From Rhynchopus sp. YZ270_cl-10 (lineage: Eukaryota), in assembly GCA_964035575.1 (NCBI GenBank), contig OZ037835.1, forward strand, positions 62,001-126,000: a DNA stretch of 64,000 nt, given 5' to 3'. A program made the translations under genes and the position numbers. Below the pieces are notes generated by a model. That model was not told where the DNA came from, searched no databases, and saw only the letters and a program-made list of their open reading frames with translations. Positions 2,604 through 41,234 of this stretch are shown here, piece by piece (position 1 is the stretch's first letter; every line of letters starts with the position of its first letter).

Positions 2604-2638
<35 letters not shown>

Positions 2639-2646
2639 CCCGGTGG

Positions 2647-4406: not shown

Positions 4407-4434
4407 ACTGGCTGGGCGACCTCCTGGGAACACC
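4407..4434 (+). other. 5S rRNA-like (box C region) fragment inside the family-2 3' UTR
   Basis: ACTGGCTGGGCGACCTCCTGGGAACACC resembles the conserved eukaryotic 5S segment (ACT..GG.TGGG.GACC.CCTGGGAA.ACC). The rest of the 5S sequence is absent. Confidence 0.5.
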
Positions 4435-4566
4435 TCACACAAAAATCAAAATGATAAATGACAAAATAAAAATGGGGAAAACCACGTTTTCGTACACATA
4501 TTCTTTGCTTTGCTTTGCATTGTTTTGGTTTGCTTAGTTTGGTGTTGTTTTCTTTGTATCTCTTGT

Positions 4567-13500: not shown

Positions 13501-14290
13501 GTCTGCTGTTGTTGCTGGAGTTGTTGTTGTTGCTGCTATCAAAGCTGCAGCCGCTTAGGTTGTTGGGCACCAAAGGCCTCTTTTTGGGGTAATAATGGGG
13601 GGGAATGGGGGGACTGTTTCTGCTGGCGCTGCAGAAGTTGCTGTTGCAGCAGTTGCTGTTGCTGTTGGTGTTGGTGTTGCCATTGCTGTATTTGATGATG
13701 AAGCTCTTGTTGCAGCCGTTGCAGTTGCAGTAGTTGGAGCTGTTGCTGCTGCTCTTGCTGCTGTTGCTGAGGCAGTTGCTGTTGTTGTTGCTGTGGCAGT
13801 TGCCATTGCTGTTGTTGCTGTTGATGTTACTCTTGTTGCAGCTGTTGCATTTGCTGTAGGTGGAGCTGATGCTGTTGCTCTTGTTGCTGTTGCTGAGGCA
13901 GATGCTGTTGCTGTTGCTGTTGCTGTAGTAGTTGCCATTGCTGTAGTTGCTGATGTTGTAGCTCTTGTTGCGACCGTTGCAGTTGCTGTAGGTGGAGCTG
14001 ATACTGTTGCTCTTGCTGCTGTTGTTGCTGTTACTGCAGTAGTTGCCATTGCTGTTGTTGCTGTTGCTGTTGCTCTTGCTGCTGTTGCTGTAGCAGTTGC
14101 TGTTGTTGTTGCTGTTACTGCAGTAGCTGCCATTGCTGTTGTTGCTGTTGATGTTGCTCTTGTTGCAACCGTTGCAGTTGCTGTAGGTGGAGCTGATGCT
14201 GTTGTTCTTGCTGCTGTTGCTGTAGCAGTTGCTGTTGTTGCTGCCCACCACCAACACACATAGCACCCCCAGAAGGGCCTTCCTCCGCAT
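4567..14290 (-). pseudogene. Family-2 polyprotein (Ser/Asn-rich N-terminus, hydrophobic segment, OTU-like, Zn fingers, RT, CCHC-RLE, two further OTU-like + Cys-rich units), broken by a frameshifting deletion near 10357
   Basis: ORFs 10238-14290 and 4567-10374 join at GKILA|TPRGSE. Versus family 1 (GKILSARVRVPARTLLLRGNQVGVATARG), about 19-20 codons including the QxGV motif are missing. Confidence 0.85.
12930..14245 (-). repeat. CAG/CAA/AAC-rich low-complexity repeats encoding the Ser/Asn-rich N-terminus of family 2
   Basis: Degenerate trinucleotide repeats, in frame with the RT ORF. Confidence 0.9.
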
Positions 14291-14432: not shown

Positions 14433-14628
14433 CGTTCTTCTGTGCTGCTTCGTGGTGACAGGGACGCCTCGTGTAGGCGAGCACAGGAACTACCTGGGAA
14501 GAAAGCAGAACCGTTCCAGGGGTTCGTCTGGGTCTTCTAGCTCTTTCACAAGAGAATGCCTAGACGGCTTCTGGGGGAGGGGTAAAAAGAAAGGACAAGT
14601 GTGTTGTAATGTGTAAAAAATGGTCCCC
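14433..14628 (-). ncRNA. HDV-like self-cleaving ribozyme (minimal, no obvious P4) at the 5' end of family 2
   Basis: P1 GGGGAC/GUCCCU; P2 CUGUGCU/AGCACAG; P3 GCC/GGC; L3 UACACGA; P1.1 AC/GU; J4/2 CGAA; long J1/2. Confidence 0.7.
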
Positions 14629-14718
14629 TTGTAAAAAATGGTCCCCTTGTAAAAAATGGTCCCCTTGTAAAAAATGGTCCCCTTGTAAAAAATGGTCCCC
14701 TTGTAAAAAATGGTCCCC
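14613..14718 (-). repeat. Tandem array, 6 copies of GGGGACCATTTTTTACA(A) (18 nt period), at the element 5' end
   Basis: TGGTCCCC at 14621, 14639, 14657, 14675, 14693 and 14711. Confidence 0.95.
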
Positions 14719-15505: not shown

Positions 15506-15965
15506 ATGAGCAACTATTTATTTAAAAAAATCGATTTTTTGGTCAAATCCCCCTGGTGGTGAGGGGGTGTGTGTGTGTGTGTGTGTGGGTGTGTGTGGGT
15601 GTGCTGTGTGTGGGTGTGTAGTGTGTGTGGTGTGGGTGGCGCACATCTCTATAGTAAAGACTAAAAAACTAAGGTTTTTTAGGATTTGGTGACGGGCTAA
15701 AAAACCTGTCGTTCTTGTGTGACACTTCCATGGAAACGTGATGAGGACCACACTTTTTTTACAGGTGGTTTTTTTTGTAAGGACCTCACACACTGGGCAG
15801 GCGGTCAGCTATTCGCTTCCCGCGGGGCGTTCGCGTGCGCGCTTCGCGCGCCCGCTCACGGTAACGCATCACAAAAAAACCTCACTCATGCCTTCATGAA
15901 CTGGCTTTTCAGGTGAAAAGTGCCCTGTTAAAAAGTGGTGTTTTTGTGGTACATGACAGATGGTC

Positions 15966-15969
<4 letters not shown>
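15503..15969. repeat. Modular satellite (modules A, B and start of C)
   Basis: Same modules recur at 28267-31660, 39837-41203 and 43782-44490. Confidence 0.9.
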
Positions 15970-16005
<36 letters not shown>

Positions 16006-16991: not shown

Positions 16992-19900
16992 CTAATTCTT
17001 TTTATTCCCCTTTTTCCCCTTCCTTCCTCCGCTCTGTCTCCCCTTCTGTCCACCACCGCGACCATTGCGCCCTCTCTGCACCTCCTGTGGCGAGAGCACA
17101 TGCTGCGTCGCTTGTGCCACTGCGTCGGTGAACACGTTCGACGTGTTGGACCTACCCTGAGCTGCATGGCGCTGGGGTCCTTTGGGAGCTGGGGAAGGAG
17201 CAGGTTGGGCGGAGGAGGTTGCATTGCCACGGCCTGCCGATGAGGAGGAGGAAGAAGTGGAGACTGCAGGTTGGGCGATGGAGGTTGTAGTGCCACGGCC
17301 TGCAGAGGTGGAGGAAGAAGAAGAAGAAGAGGAGGCTTGAGGTTGTCGGCCTATTCCCTCTCGAGCCGCTCGTGCCTCATTCTCCCTCCTTGTACTCTCC
17401 GCTGCAAAGGCCTGCCCCCTACTGCTCCGGTTGTCCGTCAGGGCATGCAACGTCGACTTTGCCTTGCACTTTTCCTTAACCGACCACTCATGCAAACCCA
17501 CCACCTTCATCACCTCATACCACTGAGTGAAAGTAGCGGTAGAGAGGGGGAGTGACAACAAGGGTCTGCCATCCTGTTTCTCTCCCTGACGGTAGTGGAA
17601 CAGGGAGATCCACTTCGTCACAGAAGAAGGCACCGGCGACCCCATGGTGAGGCACGGGAAAAGACCCCCCCTCTCCGTCCGCTCCTCCTCCGTCCACATC
17701 CAAGCCTCGCTCTGCGCCCTCAGCAATTCCCTCACCCTCGCTTGCTTCTTCTGGTCAGGGATGCCTTCCACTGACAGAGAATGCGAGCGATCCGCCCCCT
17801 CCCTCGCGGTGTCGAGGTCCTCCTCCTGCTCCTGCTCAGCATCATCCATCTCCTCCACCTTCACACGCACCTCGGTGTCTGCCGCCTCGGCCTGTCGCCC
17901 CACCTCCTCCTCCAGCTGATCCCGAGAAGGGGTTCCCCAGCTGACCCTGCCTTCCCGAACGACGATGACCGCGCTGGTCTTGCCCCAGGTGTCGCAATAT
18001 CCGGCCTCCCCTGCTATCTTCCTAACCGCCTGACGGGCGACCACCGACTCCGGGCAATCACCGTCCCCCTCCCCGTTCCCACTCCACGGCTGCTGTGTCG
18101 CCCAGCAGTACAGGAACTCGCCCGGGCACGGAGAAGCACCTTGAGGACCAAAGAGAGCCATCCAGTCGCCGACACAGTCAGGTTCGAGTCCTTCAGGGTC
18201 GTCGCCCACCGCTCTCCGCACCGCATGGCAGGGGAGGAATAGCCGCCCTTCGCACACCACCCCAAAGCACCGCCCGTATGCCACCATGCGTTCTGCCTCC
18301 AGCTGTCGGGAGAGGTTCACCGCCGTCAACAACAGAGTGGTCGCCTTCTGCTCCGACTCATGCTTAGCTGCGATGGCGTAATGCCTCTCGCAGCGTTGCC
18401 TGTCATACTCCGCCCGGAGCGACTCTCCTGCTTCGGGGTGCCGATCGCAGTCTTCCAAGTACTGCGCATGCATCTTCTTCGCGTCCTCTGCGAGTTCCCG
18501 CTTGTGCCTGGCGGTCAGCTCCTCCACACGATGCCTGTCCGCCGCCTTCGCCTGGTCCAGACGCACATTCTGTTCCTCCAGGAAACGACTCAACTCCTGC
18601 TGGCGGTCGCCAAAAGTGCCCCGAAGCGCGGCCAAATCCGGTCCCCACGACCGACGATGCTCCCGCCGTACCTCCAGGGCTTGCTGCCACGCGTCCGACG
18701 CACGCTGCAACGCTTCCTTCTTCTCCTGGTCCGCCTTTTGTTGTTGCTGCTTCTGCTGTTTCCGTTGCTTCTCGTGCTTCTGCTGCTTCTGTTCTGCCTG
18801 CTGCCCCTCTTCGCCCGCCATTGGCGTGTCTACCTCCTCGACGTCCTCGCCCTCGGGAGCTGGCACTGCTGGAGAAGGAGCCCGTTTAGGTGGTGGGTCT
18901 CCGCTCCCCTCCGCAGAGGCAGCCTGAGCCGGAACATTCGAGTGCAAAAAAGACAGGGCACTGAAGTATTCCGCCCTGCCAATTTGCGACAGAGGGCAGT
19001 GCTTGGACCCCTGAGCGCAGTGCAGACATGCCAAGCCACCACACGTGTGACAGCAGAAGTGTGCGTCCGACGCATCGAAGAGCTTGCTGCATTGTTCGCA
19101 CTGCAGGAAAGTGTTCGACGCCTCCGCCTCCCTCGCTCCCACAAAAGCCATGGGGCGCTCTGACTGGCACTCCCCCTTACCACCTGTGGCCTCAAAAGAC
19201 AGGATGTGCTGCTGCAGAGCCGGGTCCATGGTGAGGGGCTCGTAGTGTCCCGGGATACTGCCGGATCCATCTGCCGCATCCTGATCACCCGAGTGGAGGA
19301 GAAGGACCACTGCCTTAGGCCGTTTTCTTGGCACCATCAGAGAAGGGCGGGCGAACTCGTTGAGGATGACCACAGATACCTCAAGAGCCTCCCCTGCCCC
19401 CGCCACTGCAATGGCATCCGCCCACGTACGCTCGTCTCCTCTGTCCCCACTCGTCATCAGCCGCTGCCAGACCCCAAAATTAGGGACAGCCGCACTCGAC
19501 AGATCAGCGCGGCCCTGGACCTTCTTCACTGCCGCCTGGCGCAGACCCTCCACCGACAAATCCGTGCGCCCAGTGGCGAAGAGCAAAGCCTCAAAAGCAC
19601 AGTCCCCCGCCACAAACGACCAAGTCACCTTCGAGGCTCCCAGCTTGGCCGCCTGTTCCGTCGCCCGAGGCCTCTGCGCTGCCGGGCACTCACGCAAAAA
19701 CTCCCACTCACGCACCACATCGAGACCCGGCCCTTCCGGAATCACGGTAGCCGAATCGAACCTCCCGGTCCGCTTCCTCGGTGGCTCCACGTGGTCCGGC
19801 TTCACGTCCCTCTTGCGCTTCCCCTGCTGCTCCTCCGACCGGTCTGGAGCAGGACGACTCATATCGTCGTCAGGGTTCGCATCATCACAGAGAGGTTCCA

Positions 19901-22900
19901 CGGCCCCTGCACTGCGGCGTCCAAACCGGTCCATGTCCTCTGCAGACGGTGCCACATCTACCTCCACACACGGCTCCCGCTTCAGGGTGGCAATCCCTAC
20001 ACACATAGCACCCCGCTCCAGAAAGGAAGATGCGACCTTTTTCTGGTACGCCACCGCAATGCTCTCCCGGATGCGCAACTCTGCCGACCCTGTCAGGTGC
20101 GACGTCTGTCCCGTCGTCAGGCCTCCAAGCTGCGCAATCAAGAGGTTCGCCTCGTCGCCTGCACCCCCGAAGGCTTCAAACACAATAGGGGAGAACTTGG
20201 TATTGATCTTGTTCAAATCCCGCTCGTGCTTCTCCCGTTTGACCTGGCCCTGGTTCTTCGCCGACCAGCCCACAAACTTCGAGGCCCCTGTTCTGTAGGA
20301 AGGCAAGGTGGGGCACACGTGGGTGATGTCCAAACAACGAGGTCCATTTTCCGCCACTCCTACTGGGAGGTAGACGTCGCCTGGCCGCTTCTTCGACTCC
20401 AACTCCACTCGCACGGTCTCCTCCAAAGCAGGGTCCAAGCCCGCCCCTTGAGCAGCTCGGTACACCGAATCCCGCAAGGCGTTGTGGCGGGCGACGCGGT
20501 GTTTGGAGTAGGGGCAGCCAAAGGTGTGGTCGCCAAAGGAGTCCATGACAACCCTTTTCTGCCCCCCCTGACATGCCGAGCAAGTCGTTCCCTCCGCATG
20601 GATGGCCACCCCTAGTCGGAAACGGGTCACAACCGCAAAATCCGCTGAAGACATCTGGTTCCTTGCTGAGGGTGTCGCCGTGAGGTACGTCCCGGAAAGC
20701 GGCAGGAGAAGGGACTTCATCCGTGCTCGGTCTCGCATGCAGAGCTGTTGCATCAACTTGTCTGCCTGGGCGTCAATCACCGCAGATGACAGACTCTGCT
20801 GCTCCAGGATCTTCTTCGGCTGGGCCCTGTCCACGTGAAACGCCACCGGTACCCTGGAGTTGTACTCCTCAGCCGCGCTGTTCCATCTCTCCTCATCCCA
20901 GGTGAAGGCAGGGTCCAAGGCCTGCGACAGTTGCAGGTTCCCTGACTGAGAGGCGAGGGACGCAGCTGTCCGATGGTCCACGGTGCGACGGATACCCAGC
21001 CCCCCAAGCGCCACAGGAAGCGCCGCCTGCGCCCTTGCCAACTCCGGCAGCGCCCCATCCGGGTCATGCAGAAGCGCAGCCAGGCACCTGTCGATCAGGT
21101 CGTCAAAGGCCGTCAGGTACTCCGCGCACTGTGGGATCCCCCGCATGTAGAACACCATGCGGCAGTAGCCTTCGCAGTATCTCAGTACGTAGAAGGCTGC
21201 CTGGGAGTCCCCGAGGTCCACAAGGGCTTCCAGGTTGCGGCGGGAATCGTCCACCTTCTGGGCCATGTACTCCTCGCAGAAAGCCGCAGACCCAATGGGG
21301 ATGCCCAAGAAGTCGAACCCATCCACATCCAACAGCCGGAACCCGCCTTCACCCATGGCGTCCTGTCCACCCTCGTTCAACGTGAACCCCACGGCCTCGA
21401 GATCCTCCTTGGAGACGCCACCAGTGGAGATGAGCTCACACTTGTTCGCGTTCACCTCCAACCCCAGTTCGGAACTACGAGTGCACAGAACCTGGTACGC
21501 CTCAAAAACCGCCTTAGGGGACCCCCGCAGAGAGCCGTCATCGAGGTACCACAAAGTCCCATCCAGGCCTGGGTGCCCCTTCAGCTCTAGCGCCATCTGG
21601 TGGATGGTCAGGGAGAAGAGAAGCGGGCCCAAGGGATCTCCTTGTTGAGCTCCGCGCTGTGACCTTATGGTATCCCCACCATAAAACAGGCTGGAGGGCT
21701 CCAGGTAACACCATCGCACCCATGGGGCCAGCTCGGGGAGGTTGGCGTCGACCGCTCTTAGCATCGACAGGCGGTCTACGCAGTTGAACGCGTTACGGTA
21801 GTCAATTTTCAAAATGACTTTACCTTTTCCGCGGTTGCGCACGGCGTACTGCGAGATAACATCAGTCGCCACTGCCGCCCCCCTTGCCGTTGCCACCCCC
21901 ACCTGGTTCCCTCGAAGAAGAAGCGTCCTAGCAGGCACCCGCACTCGCGCCGACAGAATCTTTCCCACCAGTCTGCGGAGAGTGTCCCCAACCGCAATCG
22001 GACGCACGTCCTCCTCCAGGCCCGGCCCCTTTGCAGGCTTCCGGAGAGCCACCAAGTTAGCGCCGGCGAAGAACTCAGCCACCTCCACTGGAGCATTTCC
22101 TCGTGCCAAAGACGTCAACACTGCGGCCAGCGCTGCCAAAGTGCCCTTAGCCCGCCTCTGTAGGCAAAGTGTACGAAGGTGCGCGCCCGTCACGTTCGAG
22201 GGACCCGCCGCCGATGACTTCGGCATGCTCCGCAGGGCCTTCATCACCTCCACCACTGTCACCGGTGGGACCTCCTGAGGCTGGGGCCAATCCGCCTGCT
22301 CCAGGGCCTTGGAGTCGGCAGCGGCTGGGTGCTTCGTCTGAAGCTTTTCCAGCGTCGCCGGTGTCTGTGGGGCGAGGCCGTCGCTGGTAGCGCAAGACAT
22401 GGCCTGGCTCGGGAGTCCTGCTCTCGCTTTGGCGATGGTGCGCTTCCGTCTCCCTTCGTCAGTGTCCTCATCCGACCACCCAGAGGGCCTTGGCTTCCGC
22501 TCCTCTACCGTTTGCTCCCACAGGGCGACATACTGGCCAGCCTTCCAAGCCTCCAAGTCCTTCCCCCAGGTGCTCGTCAAACGTCGCTCCTGGTCCTTGC
22601 CCCCTCGTTCTGTCCGTGTCCGGTGCAACACAGTGAAGAACAGTGCAAGGCGCTTCCATGCCACCTCGTCTTGGTACTCAAGGATGTCCATAAGAACCCT
22701 CAGGAAGAGCTCGCTGTACAGCTGCAGGTGTTTGTCTGGGCACCCGCCCTTCAGCTGGATCCTGGTGGTCCCCATGACTTCAAAGGAGGGGAGGTCATCC
22801 TGATCTGTCAGCATTCCTCGACTGGAGGGAGACGGAGCGGTGAAGCCTTCTTCGCCAAAGTGCACCGTACAGGTGTTGCAGACCTCCTTGCTCTGCGGCA

Positions 22901-25900
22901 ATAGCATGTCGCACTGATCGTTCGCACAGCGCGACATGCCCAAGTGGCCCAACAGCTCGTCGGGGATGTACGCTCCATCCGCCTGGTGGCGACGCATATG
23001 CTGCAGCAAGCCCTTACGAGACAGGCCCCCGACCGCATCACTCGAAGACAAAATTCCCGCTCTGCATCCATCAAAGGGGCAGAACACCCGATCCGCATTG
23101 ATGTGCCCCAGCTTGGTAGCCAGGGGGGCGGTGGTGGTGGTGTTGGTGGGGATGATGCCATCCAAATGCGCTGTGTCCAGCACTGCCTGCCGAGCCTCCT
23201 TCCTCATCTTCTCTGCCATCCCCTCCTTGGTCTTCCCCACCACCGGGACAAGCTCCACTGCCTCAAAGTGAGAGTCACAGAGAGCGATGACGACCGTGGG
23301 AAGCTTCGCTTGGAAGCTCTCCGCGTACGACTTGGCGACTCTTTTGCTACCAGGGGTGATGCGCACGAGGGGGTTCTCTTCCGACGCCTGCACCACCACG
23401 ATGTTGATGCGGGATGCTGTCGCGGTGAGCTGAAGCCCCAAGTGGTTGAGGTGGGCCTCGCCGGTCACACCATTGGCAAACTCCGTCATGGCCTCCTGCG
23501 ACCCCAGCACCTGCACCAGGCGGTTCGACACCTCCACTGCTGTGTCATACAGCTGCTTGCGCATTGCCCTCACGTCCGGCTGCGTGTCGTGGTCCCAGAG
23601 GTGTAGTGCCACATAACCACAATCATTTGTGGACACGTTGGGGATGCGTTTAGCTCCAAACTTCGCCAGAGTCGCGTCCACAGACACCGCTTGCTCTGTA
23701 TACGCAGGAGCGTTCACGTTTGCGCACCCACCGGTCAACGCAAACGGGGACAAGCTGATCGGGTGCTCCGGATCCGCAGGGGCAGGGCGCAGGTCCCAGG
23801 GCGTCACCGCTCGCCACAACAGCGACAGCAAGACCAGTAGGGACACCACCAGCATGCCAAATGCCATCCCGATCCTACGAGTCCACCTGCGTGCTGCCAC
23901 ACGGCGCACCTCCAAGAGAAGAACCCAGCCAAGTGGGCGCGCGACGCCGACCAGTGCCACAAAACCCGCCAAACAACCACCTGCGGACCATGCAACCCAC
24001 ACCCACTCGGCTGCACACACCGACAACTGACCCACCCCCATCACACTGGCCCTCACCAAGCTGGCAGCCACTCGGATCCCTCCGGTCCATCGGCGCACTC
24101 GCTCGCTCGCCCCTTCCAGCCACCGCCATCCTCTCCGAACGCGGCACAGTCCCCGCAGCACACCCACCCCCAGCACCTCCGCGTCCCGAAAAAGCGCGCA
24201 ACCCAAAACATGTGGCGCTGACCTCCCAAGCTCAGACCCCACAAAAACCAGAACCCAGATGGCCACACACTGCAAAGCACCTCTCAACGCATCGGCGACC
24301 CTGATCCTGCGGAAAACTGGGTGCGCTGCCGGAGAGGGCGGACGATTGCAGGGCGCCTTGCGCCGACGGAGCCTGCCCGCCTGTGACTTGGTCCAGTTCA
24401 AGGACCGGTGTCCTCGTCGCGTCCTCCTGGTCCTCCTGCCCACTAGCCACAAAATGAGATGACTGAGGGTAGGGGCGCGTCTGTCCTTCCACAGATCCAG
24501 GACCGCGAACGACACAAACACTCCCCACTCAGGTGCCTCGACTACCCAGCAGGGGTCAGGTTGACGCAAGGAGGTGAAGACCTCCCAGAGGTTGCACCAC
24601 CAGTCGAACCAAAACTCTATCTGTACACACCCCTTTTGCCACACCCGCATCATCACACAGCCACTCTGTCCTTCTCGCCCCTCAAGGCTGACCCCGAACA
24701 CCAGCATACCTCGCTCACCACCCCCTAAGTTGTTGTTGCTGCGTCTGCTGTTGATGTTGGTGCTGCTGTTGGACCTGCTGTTGGAACTGCTGCTGCAGAA
24801 GTCTATGGAACTGCAGTTGAAACTGCTGTTGTGCCTGCTGTTGGAACTGCTGCTGGAACTGCTTTTGGAGACGCTGTTGGACCTGCTGTTGGAACCGCTG
24901 CTGCAGAAGTCTTTGGAACTGCTGTTAAAACTGCTGTTAAGCCTGCTGTTGGAACTGCTGTTGGACCTGCCGTTAGAGCTGCTGCCGCGGAAGTCCTTGG
25001 AACTGCTGATGAAACTGCTGTTGTGCCTGCTGTTGTGCCTGTTGCTGGAACTGCTTTTGGAAACGCTGTTGGAACTGCTGCCGCAGAAGCCATTGGAACT
25101 GCTGTTTAAACTGCTGTTGTGCCTGCTGCTGGAACTGCTTTTGGAAACGCTGTTGGAACCGCTGCTGCAGAAGTCTTTGGAACTGCTGTTAAAACTGCTG
25201 TTAAGCCTGCTGTTGGAACTGCTGTTGGACCTGCCGTTAGAGCTGCTGCCGCAGAAGTCCTTGGAACTGCTGATGAAACTGCTGTTGTGCCTGCTGTTGT
25301 GCCTGTTGCTGGAACTGCTTTTGGAAACGCTGTTGGAACTGCTGCCGCAGAAGCCATTGGAACTGCTGTTTAAACTGCTGTTGTGCCTGCTGCTGGAACT
25401 GCTTTTGGAAACGCTGTTGGAACCGCTGCTGCAGAAGTCTTTGGAACTGCTGTTAAAACTGCTGTTAAGCCTGCTGTTGGAACTGCTGTTGGACCTGCCG
25501 TTAGAGCTGCTGCCGCAGAAGTCCTTGGAACTGCTGATGAAACTGCTGTTGTGCCTGCTGTTGTGCCTGTTGCTGGAACTGCTTTTGGAAACGCTGTTGG
25601 AACTGCTGCCGCAGAAGCCATTGGAACTGCTGTTTAAACTGCTGTTGTGCCTGCTGCTGGAACTGCTTTTGGAAACGCTGTTGGAACCGCTGCTGCAGAA
25701 GTCTTTGGAACTGCTGTTAAAACTGCTGTTAAGCCTGCTGTTGGAACTGCTGTTGGACCTGCCGTTAGAGCTGCTGCCGCAGAAGTCCTTGGAACTGCTG
25801 ATGAAACTGCTGTTGTGCCTGTTGCTGGAACTGCTTTTGGAAACGCTGTTGGAACTGCTGCTGCAGAAGCCATTGGAACTGCTGTTTAAACTGCTGTTGT

Positions 25901-27515
25901 GCCTGCTGTTGGAACTGCTGTTGGACCTGCCGTTAGAGCTGCTGCCGCAGAAGTCCTTGGAACTGCTGATGAAACTGCTGTTGTGCCTGTTGCTGGAACT
26001 GCTTTTGGAAACGCTGTTGGAACTGCTGCTGGAACTGCTGTTGGAGACGCTGCTGGACCCGCCGTTGGAGCTGCTGCCGCAGAAGCCATTGGAACTGCTG
26101 TTGAAACTGCTGTTGTGCCTGCTGTTGGACCTGCTGTTGGAGCTGCTGCTGCAGAAGTCTTTGGAACTGCAGTTGAAACTGCTGTTGTGCCTGCTGTTGG
26201 AACTGCTGCTGGAACTGCTTTTGGAAACGCTCTTGCTGCTGCAGAAGCCGTTGGAACTGCTGTTTAAACTGCTGTTGTGCCTGCTGTTGGACCTGCTGTT
26301 GGAACCGCTGCTGCTGAAGCCTTTGGAACTGCTGGTGAAAGAGCTGTAGAGCCTGCTGTTGGAACTGCTGCAGTAAAGGCCTTTGGAACTGCTGCTGCTG
26401 CACACCAGGGGTGATACTGGGACCCCACCCAGGACTCCGAAGATTTCGTTTTTGCTGCTATCACAGTTGCAGCCACTGATGTGGTTGGGCATACATTGCC
26501 TCTTTTTGGGGATATCATGGGGGGAAGGGGGGTGTGGGTTGTTATGACAACAGTTCTTTACTTTGTTGCCTCCACACACGTTTTTGTTGCTGCTATCAAA
26601 GCTGCAGCTGCTTGGGTTGTTGGGCTCAAGAGGCCTCTTTTTGGGGTAAAAAAGGGGGGGAATGGGGCTCCTGCCACTGATGAGGAAGCTGTTGTAGCAT
26701 AGGAAGCTGCCGCTCCTGCTGTTGGTGCTCCTGCTACTGCTGTTGATGCAGCTTATGTTGTTGCTGCTGTTGCTGCTGTTGCTGCTGTTGCTGCTGTTGC
26801 TGCTGTTGCTGCTGTTGCTGCTGTTGCTGCTGTTGCTGCTGTTGCTGCTGTTGCTGCTGTTGCTGCTGTTGCTGCTGTTGCTGCTGTTGCTGCTGTTGCT
26901 GCAGTTGCTGCTGTTGCTGCTCTTGTTGCTACCGTTGTTGCTTCTGCTGCAGTTGCAGCTGGTGTAGCATATGCTGCTGTTGCAGCTGGTGTAGCATATG
27001 CTGCTGTTGCTGCTGTTGCTGCTGTTGCTGCTGTTGCTGCTGTTGCTGCTGTTGCTGCTGTTGCTGCTGTTGCTGCTGTTGCTGCTGTTGCTGCTGTTGC
27101 TGCTCTTGTTGCTACCGTTGTTGCTTCTGCTGCAGTTGCAGCTGGTGTAGCATATGCTGCTGTTGCTGCTGTTGCTGCTGTTGCTGCTGTTGCTGCTGTT
27201 GCTGCTGTTGCTGCTGTTGCTGCTGTTGCTGCTGTTGCTGCTGTTGCTGCTGTTGCTGCTGTTGCTGCTGTTGCTGCTGTTGCTGCTGTTGCTGCTGTTG
27301 CTGCTGTTGCTGCTGTTGCTGCTGTTGCTGCTGTTGCTGCTGTTGCTGCTGTTGCTGCTGTTGCTGCTGTTGCTGCTGTTGCTGCTGTTGCTGCTGTTGC
27401 TGCTGTTGCTGCTGTTGCTGCTGTTGCTGCTGCTGTTGGTGTAGCACCTGCTGCTGCTGCTGATGCAGACATGCAGCACCACCCACAACGCCCCCAAAAG
27501 GGCCTTCCTCCTCAT
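16992..27515 (-). CDS. Family-1 polyprotein, ~3507 aa: signal-like N-terminus, SNS repeats, hydrophobic segments, OTU-like, C2H2/C4 Zn fingers, RT, CCHC + RLE, OTU, Cys-rich domain, coiled coil
   Basis: ATG of MRRKALLG is shared with family 2. Motifs: RPIAVG, DYRNAFN, QQGDPLGP, WYLDDG, GGLG, CSAC..DHTFGC..RHN, KRPGDV..LDIT..PIVFEAFGG, VAGDCAFEAL..WAD..GHYEP. Confidence 0.93.
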   Translation of the reverse strand: MRRKALLGALWVVLHVCISSSSRCYTNSSSNSSNSSNSSNSSNSSNSSNSSNSSNSSNSSNSSNSSNSSNSSNSSNSSNSSNSSNSSNSSNSSNSSNSSNSSNSSNSSNSSNSSNSSNSSICYTSCNCSRSNNGSNKSSNSSNSSNSSNSSNSSNSSNSSNSSNSSNSSNSSICYTSCNSSICYTSCNCSRSNNGSNKSSNSSNCSNSSNSSNSSNSSNSSNSSNSSNSSNSSNSSNSSNSSNSSNSSNSSNNISCINSSSRSTNSRSGSFLCYNSFLISGRSPIPPLFYPKKRPLEPNNPSSCSFDSSNKNVCGGNKVKNCCHNNPHPPSPHDIPKKRQCMPNHISGCNCDSSKNEIFGVLGGVPVSPLVCSSSSSKGLYCSSSNSRLYSSFTSSSKGFSSSGSNSRSNSRHNSSLNSSSNGFCSSKSVSKSSSSSSSNSRHNSSFNCSSKDFCSSSSNSRSNSRHNSSFNSSSNGFCGSSSNGGSSSVSNSSSSSSSNSVSKSSSSNRHNSSFISSSKDFCGSSSNGRSNSSSNSRHNSSLNSSSNGFCSSSSNSVSKSSSSNRHNSSFISSSKDFCGSSSNGRSNSSSNSRLNSSFNSSSKDFCSSGSNSVSKSSSSSRHNSSLNSSSNGFCGSSSNSVSKSSSSNRHNSRHNSSFISSSKDFCGSSSNGRSNSSSNSRLNSSFNSSSKDFCSSGSNSVSKSSSSSRHNSSLNSSSNGFCGSSSNSVSKSSSSNRHNSRHNSSFISSSKDFCGSSSNGRSNSSSNSRLNSSFNSSSKDFCSSGSNSVSKSSSSSRHNSSLNSSSNGFCGSSSNSVSKSSSSNRHNSRHNSSFISSSKDFRGSSSNGRSNSSSNSRLNSSFNSSSKDFCSSGSNSRSNSVSKSSSSSSSNSRHNSSFNCSSIDFCSSSSNSRSNSSTNINSRRSNNNLGGGERGMLVFGVSLEGREGQSGCVMMRVWQKGCVQIEFWFDWWCNLWEVFTSLRQPDPCWVVEAPEWGVFVSFAVLDLWKDRRAPTLSHLILWLVGRRTRRTRRGHRSLNWTKSQAGRLRRRKAPCNRPPSPAAHPVFRRIRVADALRGALQCVAIWVLVFVGSELGRSAPHVLGCALFRDAEVLGVGVLRGLCRVRRGWRWLEGASERVRRWTGGIRVAASLVRASVMGVGQLSVCAAEWVWVAWSAGGCLAGFVALVGVARPLGWVLLLEVRRVAARRWTRRIGMAFGMLVVSLLVLLSLLWRAVTPWDLRPAPADPEHPISLSPFALTGGCANVNAPAYTEQAVSVDATLAKFGAKRIPNVSTNDCGYVALHLWDHDTQPDVRAMRKQLYDTAVEVSNRLVQVLGSQEAMTEFANGVTGEAHLNHLGLQLTATASRINIVVVQASEENPLVRITPGSKRVAKSYAESFQAKLPTVVIALCDSHFEAVELVPVVGKTKEGMAEKMRKEARQAVLDTAHLDGIIPTNTTTTAPLATKLGHINADRVFCPFDGCRAGILSSSDAVGGLSRKGLLQHMRRHQADGAYIPDELLGHLGMSRCANDQCDMLLPQSKEVCNTCTVHFGEEGFTAPSPSSRGMLTDQDDLPSFEVMGTTRIQLKGGCPDKHLQLYSELFLRVLMDILEYQDEVAWKRLALFFTVLHRTRTERGGKDQERRLTSTWGKDLEAWKAGQYVALWEQTVEERKPRPSGWSDEDTDEGRRKRTIAKARAGLPSQAMSCATSDGLAPQTPATLEKLQTKHPAAADSKALEQADWPQPQEVPPVTVVEVMKALRSMPKSSAAGPSNVTGAHLRTLCLQRRAKGTLAALAAVLTSLARGNAPVEVAEFFAGANLVALRKPAKGPGLEEDVRPIAVGDTLRRLVGKILSARVRVPARTLLLRGNQVGVATARGAAVATDVISQYAVRNRGKGKVILKIDYRNAFNCVDRLSMLRAVDANLPELAPWVRWCYLEPSSLFYGGDTIRSQRGAQQGDPLGPLLFSLTIHQMALELKGHPGLDGTLWYLDDGSLRGSPKAVFEAYQVLCTRSSELGLEVNANKCELISTGGVSKEDLEAVGFTLNEGGQDAMGEGGFRLLDVDGFDFLGIPIGSAAFCEEYMAQKVDDSRRNLEALVDLGDSQAAFYVLRYCEGYCRMVFYMRGIPQCAEYLTAFDDLIDRCLAALLHDPDGALPELARAQAALPVALGGLGIRRTVDHRTAASLASQSGNLQLSQALDPAFTWDEERWNSAAEEYNSRVPVAFHVDRAQPKKILEQQSLSSAVIDAQADKLMQQLCMRDRARMKSLLLPLSGTYLTATPSARNQMSSADFAVVTRFRLGVAIHAEGTTCSACQGGQKRVVMDSFGDHTFGCPYSKHRVARHNALRDSVYRAAQGAGLDPALEETVRVELESKKRPGDVYLPVGVAENGPRCLDITHVCPTLPSYRTGASKFVGWSAKNQGQVKREKHERDLNKINTKFSPIVFEAFGGAGDEANLLIAQLGGLTTGQTSHLTGSAELRIRESIAVAYQKKVASSFLERGAMCVGIATLKREPCVEVDVAPSAEDMDRFGRRSAGAVEPLCDDANPDDDMSRPAPDRSEEQQGKRKRDVKPDHVEPPRKRTGRFDSATVIPEGPGLDVVREWEFLRECPAAQRPRATEQAAKLGASKVTWSFVAGDCAFEALLFATGRTDLSVEGLRQAAVKKVQGRADLSSAAVPNFGVWQRLMTSGDRGDERTWADAIAVAGAGEALEVSVVILNEFARPSLMVPRKRPKAVVLLLHSGDQDAADGSGSIPGHYEPLTMDPALQQHILSFEATGGKGECQSERPMAFVGAREAEASNTFLQCEQCSKLFDASDAHFCCHTCGGLACLHCAQGSKHCPLSQIGRAEYFSALSFLHSNVPAQAASAEGSGDPPPKRAPSPAVPAPEGEDVEEVDTPMAGEEGQQAEQKQQKHEKQRKQQKQQQQKADQEKKEALQRASDAWQQALEVRREHRRSWGPDLAALRGTFGDRQQELSRFLEEQNVRLDQAKAADRHRVEELTARHKRELAEDAKKMHAQYLEDCDRHPEAGESLRAEYDRQRCERHYAIAAKHESEQKATTLLLTAVNLSRQLEAERMVAYGRCFGVVCEGRLFLPCHAVRRAVGDDPEGLEPDCVGDWMALFGPQGASPCPGEFLYCWATQQPWSGNGEGDGDCPESVVARQAVRKIAGEAGYCDTWGKTSAVIVVREGRVSWGTPSRDQLEEEVGRQAEAADTEVRVKVEEMDDAEQEQEEDLDTAREGADRSHSLSVEGIPDQKKQARVRELLRAQSEAWMWTEEERTERGGLFPCLTMGSPVPSSVTKWISLFHYRQGEKQDGRPLLSLPLSTATFTQWYEVMKVVGLHEWSVKEKCKAKSTLHALTDNRSSRGQAFAAESTRRENEARAAREGIGRQPQASSSSSSSSTSAGRGTTTSIAQPAVSTSSSSSSAGRGNATSSAQPAPSPAPKGPQRHAAQGRSNTSNVFTDAVAQATQHVLSPQEVQRGRNGRGGGQKGRQSGGRKGKKGNKKN
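24730..27460 (-). repeat. Coding tandem repeats: (AGCAGCAAC)n 9-mer tracts and a 264 bp higher-order repeat (~3 copies)
   Basis: Perfect GCTGCTGTT runs at 26760-27430. 264 bp period seen at 25106, 25370 and 25634. Confidence 0.93.
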
Positions 27516-27580
27516 TTTAAAAAAGACTTTAAAAAAGCAAAAACCAAAAAACGAAAACAAAGAAGGACAAGACACACTAC

Positions 27581-27728
27581 GCCTTGCGCTTCGCCGGCCT
27601 GCACCCTCTACCGTTGCCCAGGGACCGCCCCGTGGAGGCGTACAAGGCTCACAATAAAACAAAGGAAAGGGGGAGGGAGGGTAAAAAGAAAGGACAAGTG
27701 TGTTGTAATGTGTAAAAAAATGGTCCCC
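27581..27728 (-). ncRNA. HDV-like self-cleaving ribozyme at the 5' end of family 1
   Basis: P1 GGGGACC/GGUCCCU (G1-U wobble); P2 GCCUUGU/GCAAGGC; P3 GCC/GGC; L3 UCCACGG; P1.1 CC/GG; GCAA; P4 CGGU/GCCG; J4/2 GCGAA. Confidence 0.88.
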
Positions 27729-28266
27729 TGTGTAAAAAAATGGTCCCCTGTGTAAAAAAATGGTCCCCTGTGTAAAAAAATGGTCCCCTGTGTAAAAAAA
27801 TGGTCCCCTGTGTAAAAAAATGGTCCCCTGTGTAAAAAAATGGTCCCCTGTGTAAAAAAATGGTCCCCTGTAAAAAAATGGTCCCCTGTAAAAAAATGGT
27901 CCCCTGTAAAAAAATGGTCCCCTGTAAAAAAATGGTCCCCTGTAAAAAAATGGTCCCCTGTAAAAAAATGGTCCCCTGTAAAAAAATGGTCCCCTGTAAA
28001 AAAATGGTCCCCTGTAAAAAAATGGTCCCCTTGTAAAAAAATGGTCCCCTTGTAAAAAAATGGTCCCCTTGTAAAAAAATGGTCCCCTTGTAAAAAAATG
28101 GTCCCCTTGTAAAAAAATGGTCCCCTTGTAAAAAAATGGTCCCCTTGTAAAAAAATGGTCCCCTTGTAAAAAAATGGTCCCCTTGTAAAAAAATGGTCCC
28201 CTTGTAAAAAAATGGTCCCCTTGTAAAAAAATGGTCCCCTTGTAAAAAAATGGTCCCCTTTGTAAA
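27711..28266 (-). repeat. Tandem array, 29 copies of GGGGACCATTTTTTTACA, in blocks of 20 nt (x7), 18 nt (x9) and 19 nt (x12) plus a terminal copy
   Basis: Counted directly: 27721-27860, 27861-28022, 28023-28250 and 28251-28266. Confidence 0.96.
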
Positions 28267-31200
28267 ACAGATGGTCAAAAGAGTGATCTGACCATATTCC
28301 CCAGGTATAACTGGTACTCAAAAAGTTCATTAACGAAGGAATCTTGCACTTTTGACCATCACATATTACATGTGTTTTTTCAGGTTTTTCAATGCACTTT
28401 CCTGTACTGGGAAGCATGCCACAAGTGTCATGTTTTACAAGGTAAAAATGACCAAAAAAGCTGATTTGGTGACGGGCTAAAAAACCTGTCGTTCTTGTGT
28501 GACACTTCCATGGAAACGTGATGAGGACCACACTTTTTTTACAGGTGGTTTTTTTTGTATGGACCTCACACACTGGGCAGGCGGTCAGCTATTCGCTTCC
28601 CGCGGGGCGTTCGCGTGCGCGCTTCGCGCGCCCGCTCACGGTAACGTGTACAAAAAAACCTCACTCATGCCTTCATGAACTGCTTTAAAGGTGGCCTGTA
28701 AAAAGTGGTGTTTTTGTGGTAAACTCCAGCTGGTCTGAAGAGTGATCTGACCATATTCCCCAGGTATAACTGGTACTCAAAAAGTTCATTAACGAAGGAA
28801 TCTTGCACTTTTGACCATCACATATTACATGTGTTTTTTCAGGTTTTTCAATACACTTTTGTGTACTGGGAAGCATGCCACAAGTGTCATGTTTTACAAG
28901 GTAAAAATGACCAAAAAAGCTGATTTTTGGCCGAATGCCACATGTCATTTGGCAGTCCATTTTTTGAACAGGACTGTCTTAAATTTTTTTTTTGGGCCTC
29001 AATGCCCCCAAACAACACGTTAAGCCCAAAATATTCACTTTTGGATGAGCAACTATTTATTTAAAAAAATCGATTTTTTGGTCAAATCCCCTCTGGATGG
29101 TGAGGGGGTGTGTGTGTGTGTGTGTGTGGGTGTGTGTGGGTGTGCTGTGTGTGGGTGTGTAGTGTGTGTGGTGTGGGTGGCGCACATCTCTATAGTAAAG
29201 ACTAAAAAACTAAGGTTTTTTAGGATTTTTGGCCGAATGCCACATGTCATTTGGCAGTCCAATTTCTGAACACGACTGAAAAAAAATTTTTTTTTGGGCC
29301 TCAATACCCCCAAACAACACGTTAAGCCCAAAAAATTCACTTTTGGATGAGCAACTATTTATTTAAAAAAATCGATTTTTTGGTCAAATCCCCCTGGTGG
29401 TGAGGGGGTGTGTGTGTGTGTGTGTGTGGGTGTGTGTGGGTGTGCTGTGTGTGGGTGTGTAGTGTGTGTGGTGTGGGTGGCGCACATCTCTATAGTAAAG
29501 ACTAAAAAACTAAGGTTTTTTAGGATTTGGTGACGGGCTAAAAAACCTGTCGTTCTTGTGTGACACTTCCATGGAAACGTGATGAGGACCTCACTTTTTT
29601 TTACAGGTGGTTTTTTTTGTAAGCACCTCACACACTGGGCAGGCGGTCAGCTATTCGCTTCCCGCGGGGCGTTCGCGTGCGCGCTTCGCGCGCCCGCTCA
29701 CGGTAACGTGTACAAAAAAACCTCACTTGTGCCTGTAAAGTGGCCTGTTAAAAAGTGGTGTTTTTGTCGTAAACTCCAGATGGTCAAAAGAGTGATCTGA
29801 CCATATTCCCCAGGTATAACTGGTACTCAAAAAGTTCATTAACGAAGGAATCTTGCACTTTTGACCATCACATATTAGATGTGTTTTTTCAGGTTTTTCA
29901 ATGCACTTTCCTGTGCTGGGAAGCATGCCACAAGTGTCATGTTTTACAAGGTAAAAATGACCAAAAAAGCTGATTTGGTGACGGGCTAAAAAACCTGTCG
30001 TTCTTGTGTGACACTTCCATGGAAACGTGATGAGGACCTCACTTTTTTTTACAGGTGGTTTTTTTTGTAAGCACCTCACACACTGGGCAGGCGGTCAGCT
30101 ATTCGCTTCCCGCGGGGCGTTCGCGTGCGCGCTTCGCGCGCCCGCTCACGGTAACGTGTACAAAAAAACCTCACTTGTGCCTGTAAAGTGGCCTGTTAAA
30201 AAGTGGTGTTTTTGTCGTAAACGCCAGATGGTCAAAAAAGTGATCTGACCATATTCCCCAGGTATAACTTGTACTCAAAAAGTTCATTAACGAAGGAATC
30301 TTGCACTTTTGACCATCACATATTACATGTGTTTTTTCAGGTTTTTCAATGCACTTTCCTGTACTGGGAAGCATGCCACAAGTGTCATGTTTTACAAGGT
30401 AAAAATGACCAAAAAAGCTGATTTTTGGCCGAATGCCACATGTCATTTGGCAGTCCAATTTCTGAACACGACTGAAAAAAAATTTTTTTTTGGGCCTCAA
30501 TACCCCCAAACAACACGTTAAGCCCAAAAAATTCACTTTTGGATGAGCAACTATTTATTTAAAAAAATCGATTTTTTGGTCAAATCCCCCTGGTGGTGAG
30601 GGGGTGTGTGTGTGTGTGTGTGTGGGTGTGCTGTGTGTGGGTGTGTAGTGTGTGTGGTGTGGGTGGCGCACATCTCTATAGTAAAGACTAAAAAACTAAG
30701 GTTTTTTAGGATTTTTGGCCGAATGCCACATGTCATTTGGCAGTCCATTTTCTGAACACGACTGAAAATAAATTTTTTTTTGGGCCTCAATACCCCCAAA
30801 CAACACGTTAAGCCCAAAAAATTCACTTTCTGATGAGCAACTATTTATTTAAAAAAATCGATTTTTTGGTCAAATCCCCTCTGGTGGTGAGGGGGTGTGT
30901 GTGTGTGTGTGTGTGGGTGTGTGTGGGTGTGCTGTGTGTGGGTGTGTAGTGTGTGTGGTGTGGGTGGCGCACATCTCTATAGTAAAGACTAAAAAACTAA
31001 GGTTTTTTAGGATTTGGTGACGGGCTAAAAAACCTGTCGTTCTTGTGTGACACTTCCATGGAAACGTGATGAGGACCTCACTTTTTTTTACAGGTGGTTT
31101 TTTTTGTAAGCACCTCACACACTGGGCAGGCGGTCAGCTATTCGCTTCCCGCGGGGCGTTCGCGTGCGCGCTTCGCGCGCCCGCTCACGGTAACGTGTAC

Positions 31201-37564: not shown

Positions 37565-37682
37565 GAGAGGTAGGGGGATGATATGCTGAGGGTGCTGGGG
37601 TTGAAAGGATGGAAGTCGGGATGGAATGGTGATCGTTGGAGAGGGAGGGTTTGAGTTGTGTGAGGGGTTCGTTTGAACAGCC

Positions 37683-39836: not shown

Positions 39837-41201
39837 TGTGTGTGTGTGGGTGTGTGTGTGTGTGGGTGTGTAGTGTGTGTGGTGTGGGTGGCGCACATCT
39901 CTATAGTAAAGACTAAAAAACTAAGGTTTTTTAGGATTTTTTTTTGGGCCTCAATACCCCCAAACAACACGTTAAGCCCAAAAAATTCACTTTTGGATGA
40001 GCAACTATATATTTTAAAAAATCGATTTTTTGGTCAAATCCCCTCTGGTGGTGAGGGGGTGTGTGTGTGTGTGTGTGGGTGTGTGTGTGTGTGGGTGTGT
40101 AGTGTGTGTGGTGTGGGTGGCGCACATCTCTATAGTAAAGACTAAAAAACTAAGGTTTTTTAGGATTCTTTGTAAAAAAAAATGAACCCCTTTGTAAAAA
40201 AAAATGAACCCCTTTGTAAAAAAAAATGAACCCCTGTAAAAAAAAATGATGTTTTTGTGGTAAACTCCAGCTGGTCTGAAGAGTGATCTGACCATATTCC
40301 CCAGGTATAACTGGTACTCAAAAAGTTCATTAACGAAGGAATCTTGCACTTTTGACCATCACATATTACATGTGTTTTTTCAGGTTTTTCAATGCACTTT
40401 CCTGTACTGGGAAGCATGCCACAAGTGTCATGTTTTACAAGGTAAAAATGACCAAAAAAGCTGATTTTTGGCCGAATGCCACATGTCATTTGGCAGTCCA
40501 ATTTCTGAACACGACTGAAAAAAAATTTTTTTTTGGGCCTCAATACCCCCAAACAACACGTTAAGCCCAAAAAATTCACTTTTGGATGAGCAACTATTTA
40601 TTTAAAAAAATCGATTTTTTGGTCAAATCCCCCTGGTGGTGAGGGGGTGTGTGTGTGTGTGTGTGTGGGTGTGTGTGGGTGTGCTGTGTGTGGGTGTGTA
40701 GTGTGTGTGGTGTGGGTGGCGCACATCTCTATAGTAAAGACTAAAAAACTAAGGTTTTTTAGGATTTGGTGACGGGCTAAAAAACCTGTCGTTCTGTGTG
40801 ACACTTCCATGGAAACGTGATGAGGACCACACTTTTTTTACAGGTGGTTTTTTTTGTAAGCACCTCACGCACTGGGCAGGCGGTCAGCTATTCGCTTCCC
40901 GCGGGGCGTTCGCGTGCGCGCTTCGCGCGCCCGCTCACGGTAACGCATCACAAAAAAACCTCACTCATGCCTTCATGATCACATATTACATGTGTTTTTT
41001 CAGGTTTTTCAATGCACTTTCCTGTACTGGGAAGCATGCCACAAGTGTCATGTTTTACAAGGTAAAAATGACCAAAAAAGCTGATTTTTGGCCGAATGCC
41101 ACATGTCATTTGGCAGTCCAATTTCTGAACACGATTTGGTGACGGGCTAAAAAACCTGTCGTTCTTGTGTGACACTTCCATGGAAACGTGATGAGGACCA
41201 C

Positions 41202-41203: not shown

Positions 41204-41234
<31 letters not shown>

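What the first reader, a model, noticed from the sequence alone, without database searches (positions are those of the whole stretch)
27581..28280. Retrotransposon 5' end is a 29-copy array of the first 18-20 nt of its own ribozyme-cleaved RNA: candidate telomerase-like reiterative reverse transcription
Seen: inside the TSD, the intact CRE-like element starts with 29 tandem units. Each unit begins GGGGACC, exactly the P1 5' strand (cleavage-site G1) of the HDV-like ribozyme just downstream. The 20 nt unit equals leader nt 1-20, the 18 nt unit equals nt 1-18, and the 19 nt unit equals nt 1-18 plus one extra A. The three unit types form homogeneous blocks (7/9/12). Established: HDV-like ribozymes define the 5' ends of R2 and L1Tc RNAs, and non-LTR RTs add untemplated nucleotides and jump templates. 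Inference: cleavage at the proximal G1 would strip the array each cycle, so the RT probably remakes it by repeatedly copying the RNA 5' terminus and resetting to the ACA at +18/+20. Every added unit is also a spare P1 strand and cleavage site. I know of no description of this in CRE elements but cannot search the literature.
Basis: partly seen in the sequence, partly recalled or inferred. Interest (0 to 1): 0.92.

Follow-up and report, generated by a model that had tools for sequence, protein, structure and literature searches.

The report
Retrotransposon rewrites its own 5' repeats
A jumping gene carries up to 28 exact copies of its own first 17-20 letters in front of the spot where its RNA is predicted to cut itself free, in numbers that differ from insertion to insertion, so its copying enzyme likely re-copies that end over and over, somewhat as telomerase does.

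Summary
A CRE/SLACS-like RT-RLE retrotransposon (A, minus strand, 14-bp TSD, poly-A) begins with a partial unit and 28 exact units (12x19, 9x18, 7x20 nt). They copy leader nt 1-18(+A) or 1-20, starting at the predicted HDV-like G1 (27728); the '29th' is the leader. New evidence: a second family in the window (B, 52% identical protein) has its own HDV-like fold and five units with six T, matching its six-T leader. A third, orphan array has another unit. Contigs from other runs show leaders with zero, partial or one unit, and about eleven unit types in all. A shared inherited UTR repeat is therefore unlikely, and units are probably made during reverse transcription (about 0.55). 'Telomerase-like' needs correction: an RNA cut at the proximal G1 has no A-B-A' realignment homology. 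Homogeneous blocks need memory: slide-back on an RNA that keeps one spare unit, re-use of a short RNA, or DNA-level expansion (0.25). Cleavage and repeat synthesis are untested. Ten literature searches found no such 5' arrays; R2 junction duplications and 3'-end slippage are the nearest precedents.

The parts
28267..28280 (.). Target-site duplication, 5'-side copy (14 bp), in a satellite-like module
28259..28266 (-). Partial unit at the distal junction: T-tract end, ACA and two extra A
   Evidence: this 8-mer occurs at 3e-5 per position outside the arrays
28031..28258 (-). Block of 12 x 19-nt units (leader nt 1-18 + A)
27869..28030 (-). Block of 9 x 18-nt units (leader nt 1-18)
27729..27868 (-). 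Block of 7 x 20-nt units (leader nt 1-20)
27581..27728 (-). Leader and predicted HDV-like ribozyme of element A: G1/P1 27728-27722, J1/2 73 nt, P2 27648-27642 with 27587-27581, P3/L3 27639-27627, P1' 27626-27620 (G1-U wobble), P1.1 CC/GG, J4/2 C at 27593
   Evidence: activity untested
16992..27662 (-). Element A single ORF (3556 codons from a TTG; first ATG at 27515): Ser/Asn repeats, RT (YLDD), CCHC, RLE (RPGD)
15970..16004 (-). Poly(A) tail of element A
15956..15969 (.). Target-site duplication, 3'-side copy
14629..14718 (-). Element B array: 5 x 18-nt units (B leader nt 1-17, six T, plus A), preceded by 2 nt not present in the target
14440..14628 (-). Element B leader (first 49 nt identical to A's apart from one T) and predicted HDV-like fold: 6-bp P1, J1/2 136 nt, P1.1 AC/GU in place of CC/GG, J4/2 C at 14452
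   Evidence: no Rfam HDV match
2604..14290 (-). Element B body: paralogous RT-RLE family in two frames (break inside the RT), 52% identical to A over 628 aa; poly(A) 2604-2638; sits in a second copy of A with 244 bp of target missing
40168..40249 (-). Orphan array C: partial unit and 3 x 22-nt units (GGGGTTC start, nine T, ACAAA); the leader is cut off by a satellite module

Best explanation
This CRE/SLACS-like retrotransposon carries a 5' array of exact copies of its own first 17-20 nucleotides, starting at the predicted cut site of an HDV-like ribozyme, and the element's reverse transcriptase likely writes the array while finishing an insertion. Shown: the array, its register on G1, its match to each family's own leader, and counts from 0 to 28 across insertions. 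Inferred steps: (1) the ribozyme cuts the co-transcript at a G1, often the proximal one. (2) The RT copies to the RNA 5' end and adds 0-2 untemplated nucleotides, mostly T, seen as the extra A. (3) It re-primes 13-20 nt back by a one-base clamp, which seeds a unit. The weak rU-dA hybrid of the U tract would help release (my inference). (4) It repeats until the cDNA end is captured by the target, often inside the T tract, which leaves a partial unit. (5) The blocks need memory. The simplest source is a daughter RNA cut one or more units upstream: any unit lies within R2's known P1-P1' distance. Such an RNA has a full alignment region, so slide-back adds only the terminal unit type. On this reading the blocks are successive rounds, the oldest next to the leader. 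Likely benefit (speculative): spare P1 strands and expendable sequence, so that incomplete 5' copying does not destroy the ribozyme.
For: Units begin at G1 in both elements with a leader in the window, families only 52% identical in RT-RLE. T-tract length co-varies: 28 of 28 units have seven T on A, 5 of 5 have six T on B; three X5 contigs spanning leader and unit have gap counts that fit six T in both (records 4-6, inferred). Leader contigs of other runs pass G1 into unrelated DNA with no unit (X4 record 10), with only a 6-nt unit end (X4 record 9; background 5e-4 per position), with one variant unit (X5, 27731), or with a 13-nt unit that, like its leader, starts at G2 (X5, 27727). Unit ends form a ladder: nt 17/18, 19, 20, with 0-2 extra A. 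Of the perfect arrays of 5 or more copies with units of 10-30 nt in the window, 4 of 4 blocks (2 loci) abut a G1. Drosophila R2 cleavage erases upstream additions, so junction variation is remade at each insertion (PMC3774820, passage). Non-LTR-type RTs make serial template switches through a 1-nt untemplated overhang (PMC8363836, passages). Distal J1/2 would be 603 nt; R2 tolerates over 700 (PMC3774820, section 17).
Against: There is no A-A' homology on a proximally cut RNA, and the clamp described for group II intron and R2 RTs needs an RNA 3' end, not an internal site. Perfect homogeneous blocks are also what DNA slippage gives. This window has DNA-level expansions of shorter units: a hexamer at 44 copies against 2 beside a 99.86%-identical duplicate, plus 94x7, 21x8 and 30x9 nt arrays. 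Junctions from other runs come from partial listings (14 of 27 and 12 of 21 loose ends shown). The run types are not on record, so library artefacts are possible, and the X4 junctions belong to a third leader-sharing family, not to A itself. No second A copy with an intact 5' end was available. None of the 45 distant relatives showed such an array, though many lack a 5' end. Ribozyme and RT activity are untested.
Confidence: 0.55

Rival explanations
1. The RT seeds only one or a few units at insertion, as an ordinary junction duplication, and replication slippage or unequal exchange later expands each seed into a homogeneous block.
For: Three perfect blocks. DNA-level expansion of 6-9-nt units is evident in this window. 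Short R2 junction additions, including three tandem 20-mers of 28S sequence, are on record (PMC3774820, Fig. 5 legend). The other-run junctions I could read have 0-1 unit.
Against: No other unit of 10-30 nt in the 64 kb has 5 or more exact copies. A has an open ORF, an exact TSD and a 99.7%-identical sibling, so there has been little time. Homogeneous cycles of periods 17-20 recur in several runs (contig lengths 47-50, inferred from 31-letter words).
Confidence: 0.25
2. The array is an inherited 5' UTR repeat like the MoTeR/FoTeR VNTRs, perhaps a promoter array. The ribozyme cuts at any unit's G1, so daughters inherit random lengths, and recombination keeps the units matched to the leader.
For: B's array starts exactly on a G1. 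Either of two P1 strands can presumably be used in R2 (PMC3774820). 5' VNTRs exist in telomeric RLE elements (PMC12857005, passages). A unit-like motif recurs in the satellite modules, which might be a protein-binding site.
Against: Cutting alone only shortens arrays, and zero-unit copies exist, so loss would be final. About eleven unit types ending at different leader positions point to repeated new origins. A 13-nt unit sharing its leader's G2 start is hard to inherit.
Confidence: 0.1
3. Ribozyme cuts at successive G1 sites release single-unit RNAs (5'-OH, 2',3'-cyclic phosphate). The RT jumps onto one and re-uses it, linear or ligated into a tiny circle, so each block is one template molecule.
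For: It supplies the free RNA end that end-to-end switching needs (PMC8363836). It explains the blocks, and the order 20, 18, 18+A, 18+AA from leader to target as trimming then adenylation of one template.
Against: A shared pool would put 6-T units on 7-T leaders; 2 of 2 window elements match their own. Array C changes in the opposite order. There is no evidence of 17-22-nt RNAs, and reverse transcription of so small a circle is unknown to me.
Confidence: 0.08
4. The long array is an amplification or assembly artefact.
For: Several very long perfect repeats lie in this window, and how the window was made is unknown.
Against: Unit-to-unit contigs occur in runs of five studies; four remain if the best holder X1, a possible source, is left out. 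The array lies inside an exact TSD. The exact count of 28 is not independently confirmed.
Confidence: 0.02

Closest known systems
R2 retrotransposons with HDV-like ribozymes (PMC3774820; section 14, first part of section 17 and passages read)
   Same: RLE non-LTR element with an HDV-like fold, long J1/2, and a cut site that defines the RNA 5' end. Junction additions are remade at each insertion. Tandem duplications of 13-28 nt give two usable P1 strands, and one listed junction addition has three tandem 20-mers.
   Different: R2 duplications are of 28S target sequence and nearly always single. Here the unit is the element's own leader, lies inside a separate TSD, reaches 28 exact copies and recurs in several families.
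CRE clade (SLACS, CZAR, CRE1/2; PMC12278014, passages) and MoTeR/FoTeR (PMC12857005, passages)
   Same: Single ORF with RT then RLE, poly(A), TSD, repeat regions. The nearest named protein is a 'SLACS 132 kDa protein' of Diplonema papillatum, 37% identical.
   Different: No spliced-leader target seen here. Their repeats are described as internal or UTR VNTRs ascribed to slippage, not as copies of the RNA 5' end. The FoTeR paper does not contain the word 'ribozyme'.
Telomerase and DRT10 (PMC12632851, passages); DRT2 (PMC12039810, passages)
   Same: Likely RNA-templated tandem-repeat DNA made by an RT that resets on a short template.
   Different: They use a dedicated ncRNA with an A-B-A' pattern (DRT10) or two flanking ACA motifs (DRT2) and a structural boundary. 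Here the boundary would be the cut RNA end, and a proximally cut RNA has no alignment region.
3'-end slippage by L1 ORF2p on Alu and by the I factor (PMC3415434, passages); pFOXC slide-back (PMC3035579, passages)
   Same: A retroelement RT lengthens terminal repeats during reverse transcription and offsets their loss.
   Different: Those act at initiation (RNA 3' end) on homopolymers or short repeats (3-5 nt in pFOXC). This one would act at termination (RNA 5' end) on 17-22-nt units.
Group II intron and R2 RT end-to-end template switching (PMC8363836, passages)
   Same: One untemplated nucleotide pairs with the acceptor, and serial switches give 2x-6x products in vitro.
   Different: It is described for free RNA 3' ends in vitro, not as a regular genomic 5' array.

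Membership tests
HDV-like ribozyme | Nested double pseudoknot P1, P2, P3, P1.1, P4 | tested here: met
   Descriptor hits in A and B, 0.2 per shuffle; P1.1 differs compensatorily between A and B; P4 is reduced in B. The descriptor was written after seeing the cores.
HDV-like ribozyme | G1-U wobble at the cut site and a J4/2 cytosine (features recalled) | tested here: met
   P1' ends in U; CGAA in both cores
HDV-like ribozyme | Score at an Rfam HDV-family gathering threshold | tested here: not met
   A: 24.9 against 44 bits, E 0.032; B: no match; whole window: none
HDV-like ribozyme | Self-cleavage 5' of G1 | not testable with these tools
   needs in vitro cleavage or 5'-end mapping
CRE/SLACS clade non-LTR retrotransposon | Single ORF with RT followed by CCHC and RLE | tested here: met
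   (A; RLE motifs recognised from recall); B is broken inside the RT
CRE/SLACS clade non-LTR retrotransposon | Poly(A) tail and TSD | tested here: met
   A has both; B has poly(A), but 244 bp of target are missing instead of a TSD
CRE/SLACS clade non-LTR retrotransposon | Insertion into spliced-leader RNA genes (trypanosomatid members) | tested here: inconclusive
   No match to one recalled SL motif and no Rfam SL family; B sits in another retrotransposon; this host's SL is unknown
CRE/SLACS clade non-LTR retrotransposon | RT phylogeny inside the CRE clade | not tested
   No curated references fetched; best named hit SLACS-labelled, E 1e-99; L1 and R2 structures E 9e-9 to 7e-4
Telomerase / DRT10 repeat addition | A-B-A' alignment homology in the template | tested here: not met
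   0 nt at periods 17-20 in both leaders; it would be met on an RNA that keeps one upstream unit (inference)
Telomerase / DRT10 repeat addition | Separate ncRNA with a stem-loop template boundary | tested here: not met
   The unit is the element's own 5' end, bounded by G1
Telomerase / DRT10 repeat addition | Processive repeat addition by the RT | not testable with these tools
   needs purified RT
DRT2 template jumping | ACA motifs flanking both ends of the template | tested here: not met
   ACA only at the 3' side; the 5' boundary is GGGG; some units end elsewhere
R2-type junction duplication | The duplicated sequence is target DNA | tested here: not met
   The unit is leader sequence, B's target lacks it, and A's TSD is separate; a loosely similar motif exists in the satellite
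Inherited 5' VNTR (MoTeR/FoTeR type) | The same repeat is kept inside the UTR across copies | tested here: not met
   0, partial, 1, 5 and 28 units, different unit types, always at the junction; copies come from several leader-sharing families

The most novel reading that the evidence does not exclude
A non-LTR retrotransposon RT performs processive repeat addition at the end of first-strand synthesis. It writes tens of 17-20-nt repeats from the ribozyme-cut 5' end of its own RNA, giving each new copy a self-renewing, telomere-like cap of spare cleavage sites whose blocks record successive retrotransposition rounds. In the boldest form (about 0.08), ribozyme-released units are themselves re-used as linear or circular mini-templates.
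Probability: 0.4. Interest if true: 0.9.

Novelty: new variant of a known kind. Interest (0 to 1): 0.72.

Why it matters
How non-LTR elements finish their 5' ends is the least understood step of retrotransposition (PMC3774820 calls second-strand initiation the greatest uncertainty of the R2 model). Here the 5' end leaves a countable record. If the RT writes it, a eukaryotic retrotransposon RT has repeat-addition ability of the kind known for telomerase and bacterial DRTs. That bears on the origin of telomerase (PMC12632851 places non-LTR RTs as more distant), and one protein with a 150-nt RNA would test it. It also adds predicted HDV-like ribozymes to CRE-like elements, which my searches did not find described. 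If the DNA-expansion rival holds, it is an unusual but ordinary junction repeat.

Tried and rejected
No host genome is held, so copies could not be surveyed genome-wide. Minimum-energy folding does not show the pseudoknot (z 0.47 and -0.43) and was not used. The tandem-unit pattern in metagenome contigs gave 12 loci, none with the unit plus leader. The leader pattern in viral contigs gave 0. Protein scans found no relative in viral contigs or, with the single protein, in genome contigs. The alignment found 45 distant loci (28-46% identity). None of the 45 showed a 5' array of this kind within up to 6 kb upstream of the RT match; relaxed-descriptor hits were mostly AT-rich and looked like chance, and the one GC-rich candidate, in L022, lies in an unrelated ORF. 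Many of these loci are short or degenerate, so this is weak. The distant loci were not scanned with Rfam. No RNA holder was listed among the sequencing runs, so nothing is said on expression. X10 gave no cover; X1 and X3 did not cover most of the leader. Three look-ups of earlier findings returned nothing. The ACA link to DRT2 was considered and dropped. Literature: ten searches found no report of leader-copy arrays at a ribozyme cut site. The library lacks most subscription papers and Repbase; Ruminski 2011 and the Bibillo and Eickbush papers were not read. No supplements were opened; Fig. S2 of PMC3774820 could bear on the comparison of folds.
Full report
OBSERVATION. On the minus strand the element (A) runs from 28266 to its poly(A) at 16004-15970, between two copies of a 14-bp TSD. 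From the target inward it has an 8-nt partial unit, 12 units of 19 nt, 9 of 18 nt and 7 of 20 nt, and then the leader at 27728. All 28 units are exact. They equal leader nt 1-18 plus A, nt 1-18 and nt 1-20. The unit's first 13 nt occur 35 times in the window against 0.16 expected. The ORF (3556 codons; RVT_1, YLDD, CCHC, RPGD) is an RT-RLE protein. Its nearest named relative is a SLACS-labelled protein of Diplonema papillatum (37%). The host is probably a euglenozoan-like protist, but I did not establish this.

RIBOZYME. The leader folds on paper into an HDV-like double pseudoknot: P1 27728-27722 with 27626-27620, a G1-U wobble, P1.1, P3, P2 and a J4/2 cytosine at 27593. My descriptor finds two such folds on the two strands of the window, against 0.2 per shuffle in 150 shuffles; it was written after I had seen both cores. 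Rfam support is weak: 24.9 bits against 44 for A, none for B. Cleavage is predicted, not shown.

A SECOND AND THIRD ARRAY. The second fold belongs to element B (5' end 14718), a paralogous family 52% identical to A in RT-RLE, inserted into a second copy of A. B shares A's first 49 nt apart from one T, but has a different core with a compensatory P1.1 (AC/GU for CC/GG). It carries five units with six T, like its own leader, whereas all 28 units of A have seven T, like A's leader. An orphan array at 40168-40249 has a third unit (GGGGTTC, nine T, ACAAA); its leader is lost. Of the perfect arrays of five or more copies with units of 10-30 nt in the window, all four blocks lie at the two G1 sites.

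OTHER INSERTIONS. No genome is held, so I laid public contigs on the leader plus one unit. laid 5, 1, 6 and 126 contigs from X1, X3, X4 and X8 and showed 14 of 27 loose ends and 20 of 138 pieces. laid 35, 0 and 142 from X8, X10 and X5 and showed 12 of 21 loose ends and 16 of 177 pieces. Leader-anchored contigs continue past G1 into unrelated DNA with no unit (X4 record 10, with a few A before G1), with only the last 6 nt of a unit (X4 record 9; background 5e-4), with one variant unit that has a C in the T tract (X5), or with a 13-nt unit that starts at G2 like its leader and ends in the T tract (X5). Two X8 contigs run on for about 800 nt from G2 or G1+3 without matching the adjacent unit; their letters were not shown. 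Indel tables give units ending at leader nt 17/18, 19 and 20, with or without extra A. With the window, that makes about eleven types by my count. Contigs of 47-50 nt fit homogeneous cycles of periods 17-20 (inferred). Caveats: run types are not on record; X1 may be the window's source; the X4 junctions join, by overlap, a third family that shares only leader nt 1-39; the listings are partial.

MECHANISM. Array number varies from 0 to 28 and units follow their own leader, so a fixed inherited UTR repeat is unlikely. Cutting at a G1 can only shorten an array, so something rebuilds it. The boundary at G1 (at G2 when the leader copy starts at G2), the ladder of unit ends, the extra A and the partial distal units are what an RT would leave on running off the RNA end, adding a nucleotide and re-priming. 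Such steps are established for group II intron RT and reported as similar for R2 (PMC8363836, passages). An RNA cut at the proximal G1 has no alignment homology (0 nt at periods 17-20), whereas DRT10 needs A-A' homology (PMC12632851, passages). And free resets would mix unit types (about 19 runs expected, 3 seen). I therefore favour seeding by a one-base clamp, followed by slide-back on daughter RNAs cut one or more units upstream. Any unit can reach P1' (603 nt at most; R2 spans over 700, PMC3774820). Such an RNA has a whole unit as alignment region, and adds only its terminal unit type. This is inference (0.55 for RT-written arrays).

AGAINST. Shorter repeats in this window do expand at DNA level: a hexamer stands at 44 copies against 2 beside a 99.86%-identical duplicate. 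RT seeding with later DNA expansion therefore keeps 0.25. An inherited, randomly cut VNTR (0.1) and re-use of released unit RNAs (0.08) remain. None of 45 distant relatives showed an array, and 12 metagenome pattern hits were unrelated, so the trait is so far confined to this lineage.

KNOWN SYSTEMS. HDV-like ribozymes at the 5' ends of R2, R4, Dong, L1-clade and RTE elements are known. So are R2 junction duplications of 28S sequence with two usable P1 strands, and one addition of three 20-mers (PMC3774820; section 14, part 1 of section 17 and passages). Also known are RT slippage at 3' ends (PMC3415434, PMC3035579, passages) and 5' VNTRs in FoTeR and MoTeR (PMC12857005, passages). [quoted passage not shown] Passages of PMC2718515, PMC9940879 and PMC4908430 were also read; they added only general context. 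Ten searches found no leader-copy array at a ribozyme cut site; the library is incomplete and no supplements were read.

VERDICT. A real feature of several CRE-like families: a new variant of a known kind. It likely works like repeat-adding RTs but is not a member of the telomerase or DRT families. Interest 0.72; 0.9 if processive repeat addition is shown (probability 0.4).

Noticed in passing
window 28519-28720 and repeats at 15747, 15939, 29759, 30207, 31246, 40826, 43790, 43972: The 448-bp satellite module that A inserted into holds a unit-like motif (ACCA, T run, ACAGG) on both strands, as arms of an imperfect inverted repeat. It may be chance in T-run-rich DNA, a shared binding site, or the origin of the leader.
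   Followed up: partly
window 40234-40260: The distal partial unit of orphan array C sits in register with that satellite motif, as if the cDNA had annealed or recombined there.
   Followed up: partly
runs X5, X8 against X1: Summed contig depth is far higher on the leader than on the unit in X5 (about 500,000 against 158,000) and X8 (85,000 against 39,000), and the reverse in X1. Run types are unknown and depth is a poor measure, so this is unexplained and not used as evidence.
   Followed up: no
window 31724-39920 (-): A second kind of retrotransposon: OTU protease, APE endonuclease, RT and RNase H-like domain in one ORF, plus an upstream ORF; its 5' UTR is cut by satellite modules, and array C lies just upstream.
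   Followed up: no
window 4567-10374 (-): Element B has an OTU-like domain downstream of the RLE; A has similar-looking motifs without a Pfam hit.
   Followed up: no
window 1-2603 and 14721-15505: A second copy of A, 99.6-99.7% identical, split by B with 244 bp missing and cut at its 5' side by a satellite module.
   Followed up: partly
window 58112-58384 against 47477-47520; 56811-57472; 44622-44832; 43105-43189: Perfect microsatellite expansions (44x6, 94x7, 21x8, 10x8 nt); the hexamer has two copies at the matching place of a near-identical duplicate. The 8-mer array directly follows a poly(A) run.
   Followed up: partly
window 48564-48663 and about 59434-59533: A 100-nt LSU rRNA fragment inside a duplicated segment.
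   Followed up: no
window 2640-3380 and 41216-43457: Two elements with apparent terminal inverted repeats, seen by eye: one MITE-like in B's 3' UTR, one of 2.2 kb next to a poly-T run.
   Followed up: no
L013-L057: CRE-like eukaryotic RTs in 45 contigs filed under bacterial genomes, probably eukaryotic contamination of those assemblies.
   Followed up: no
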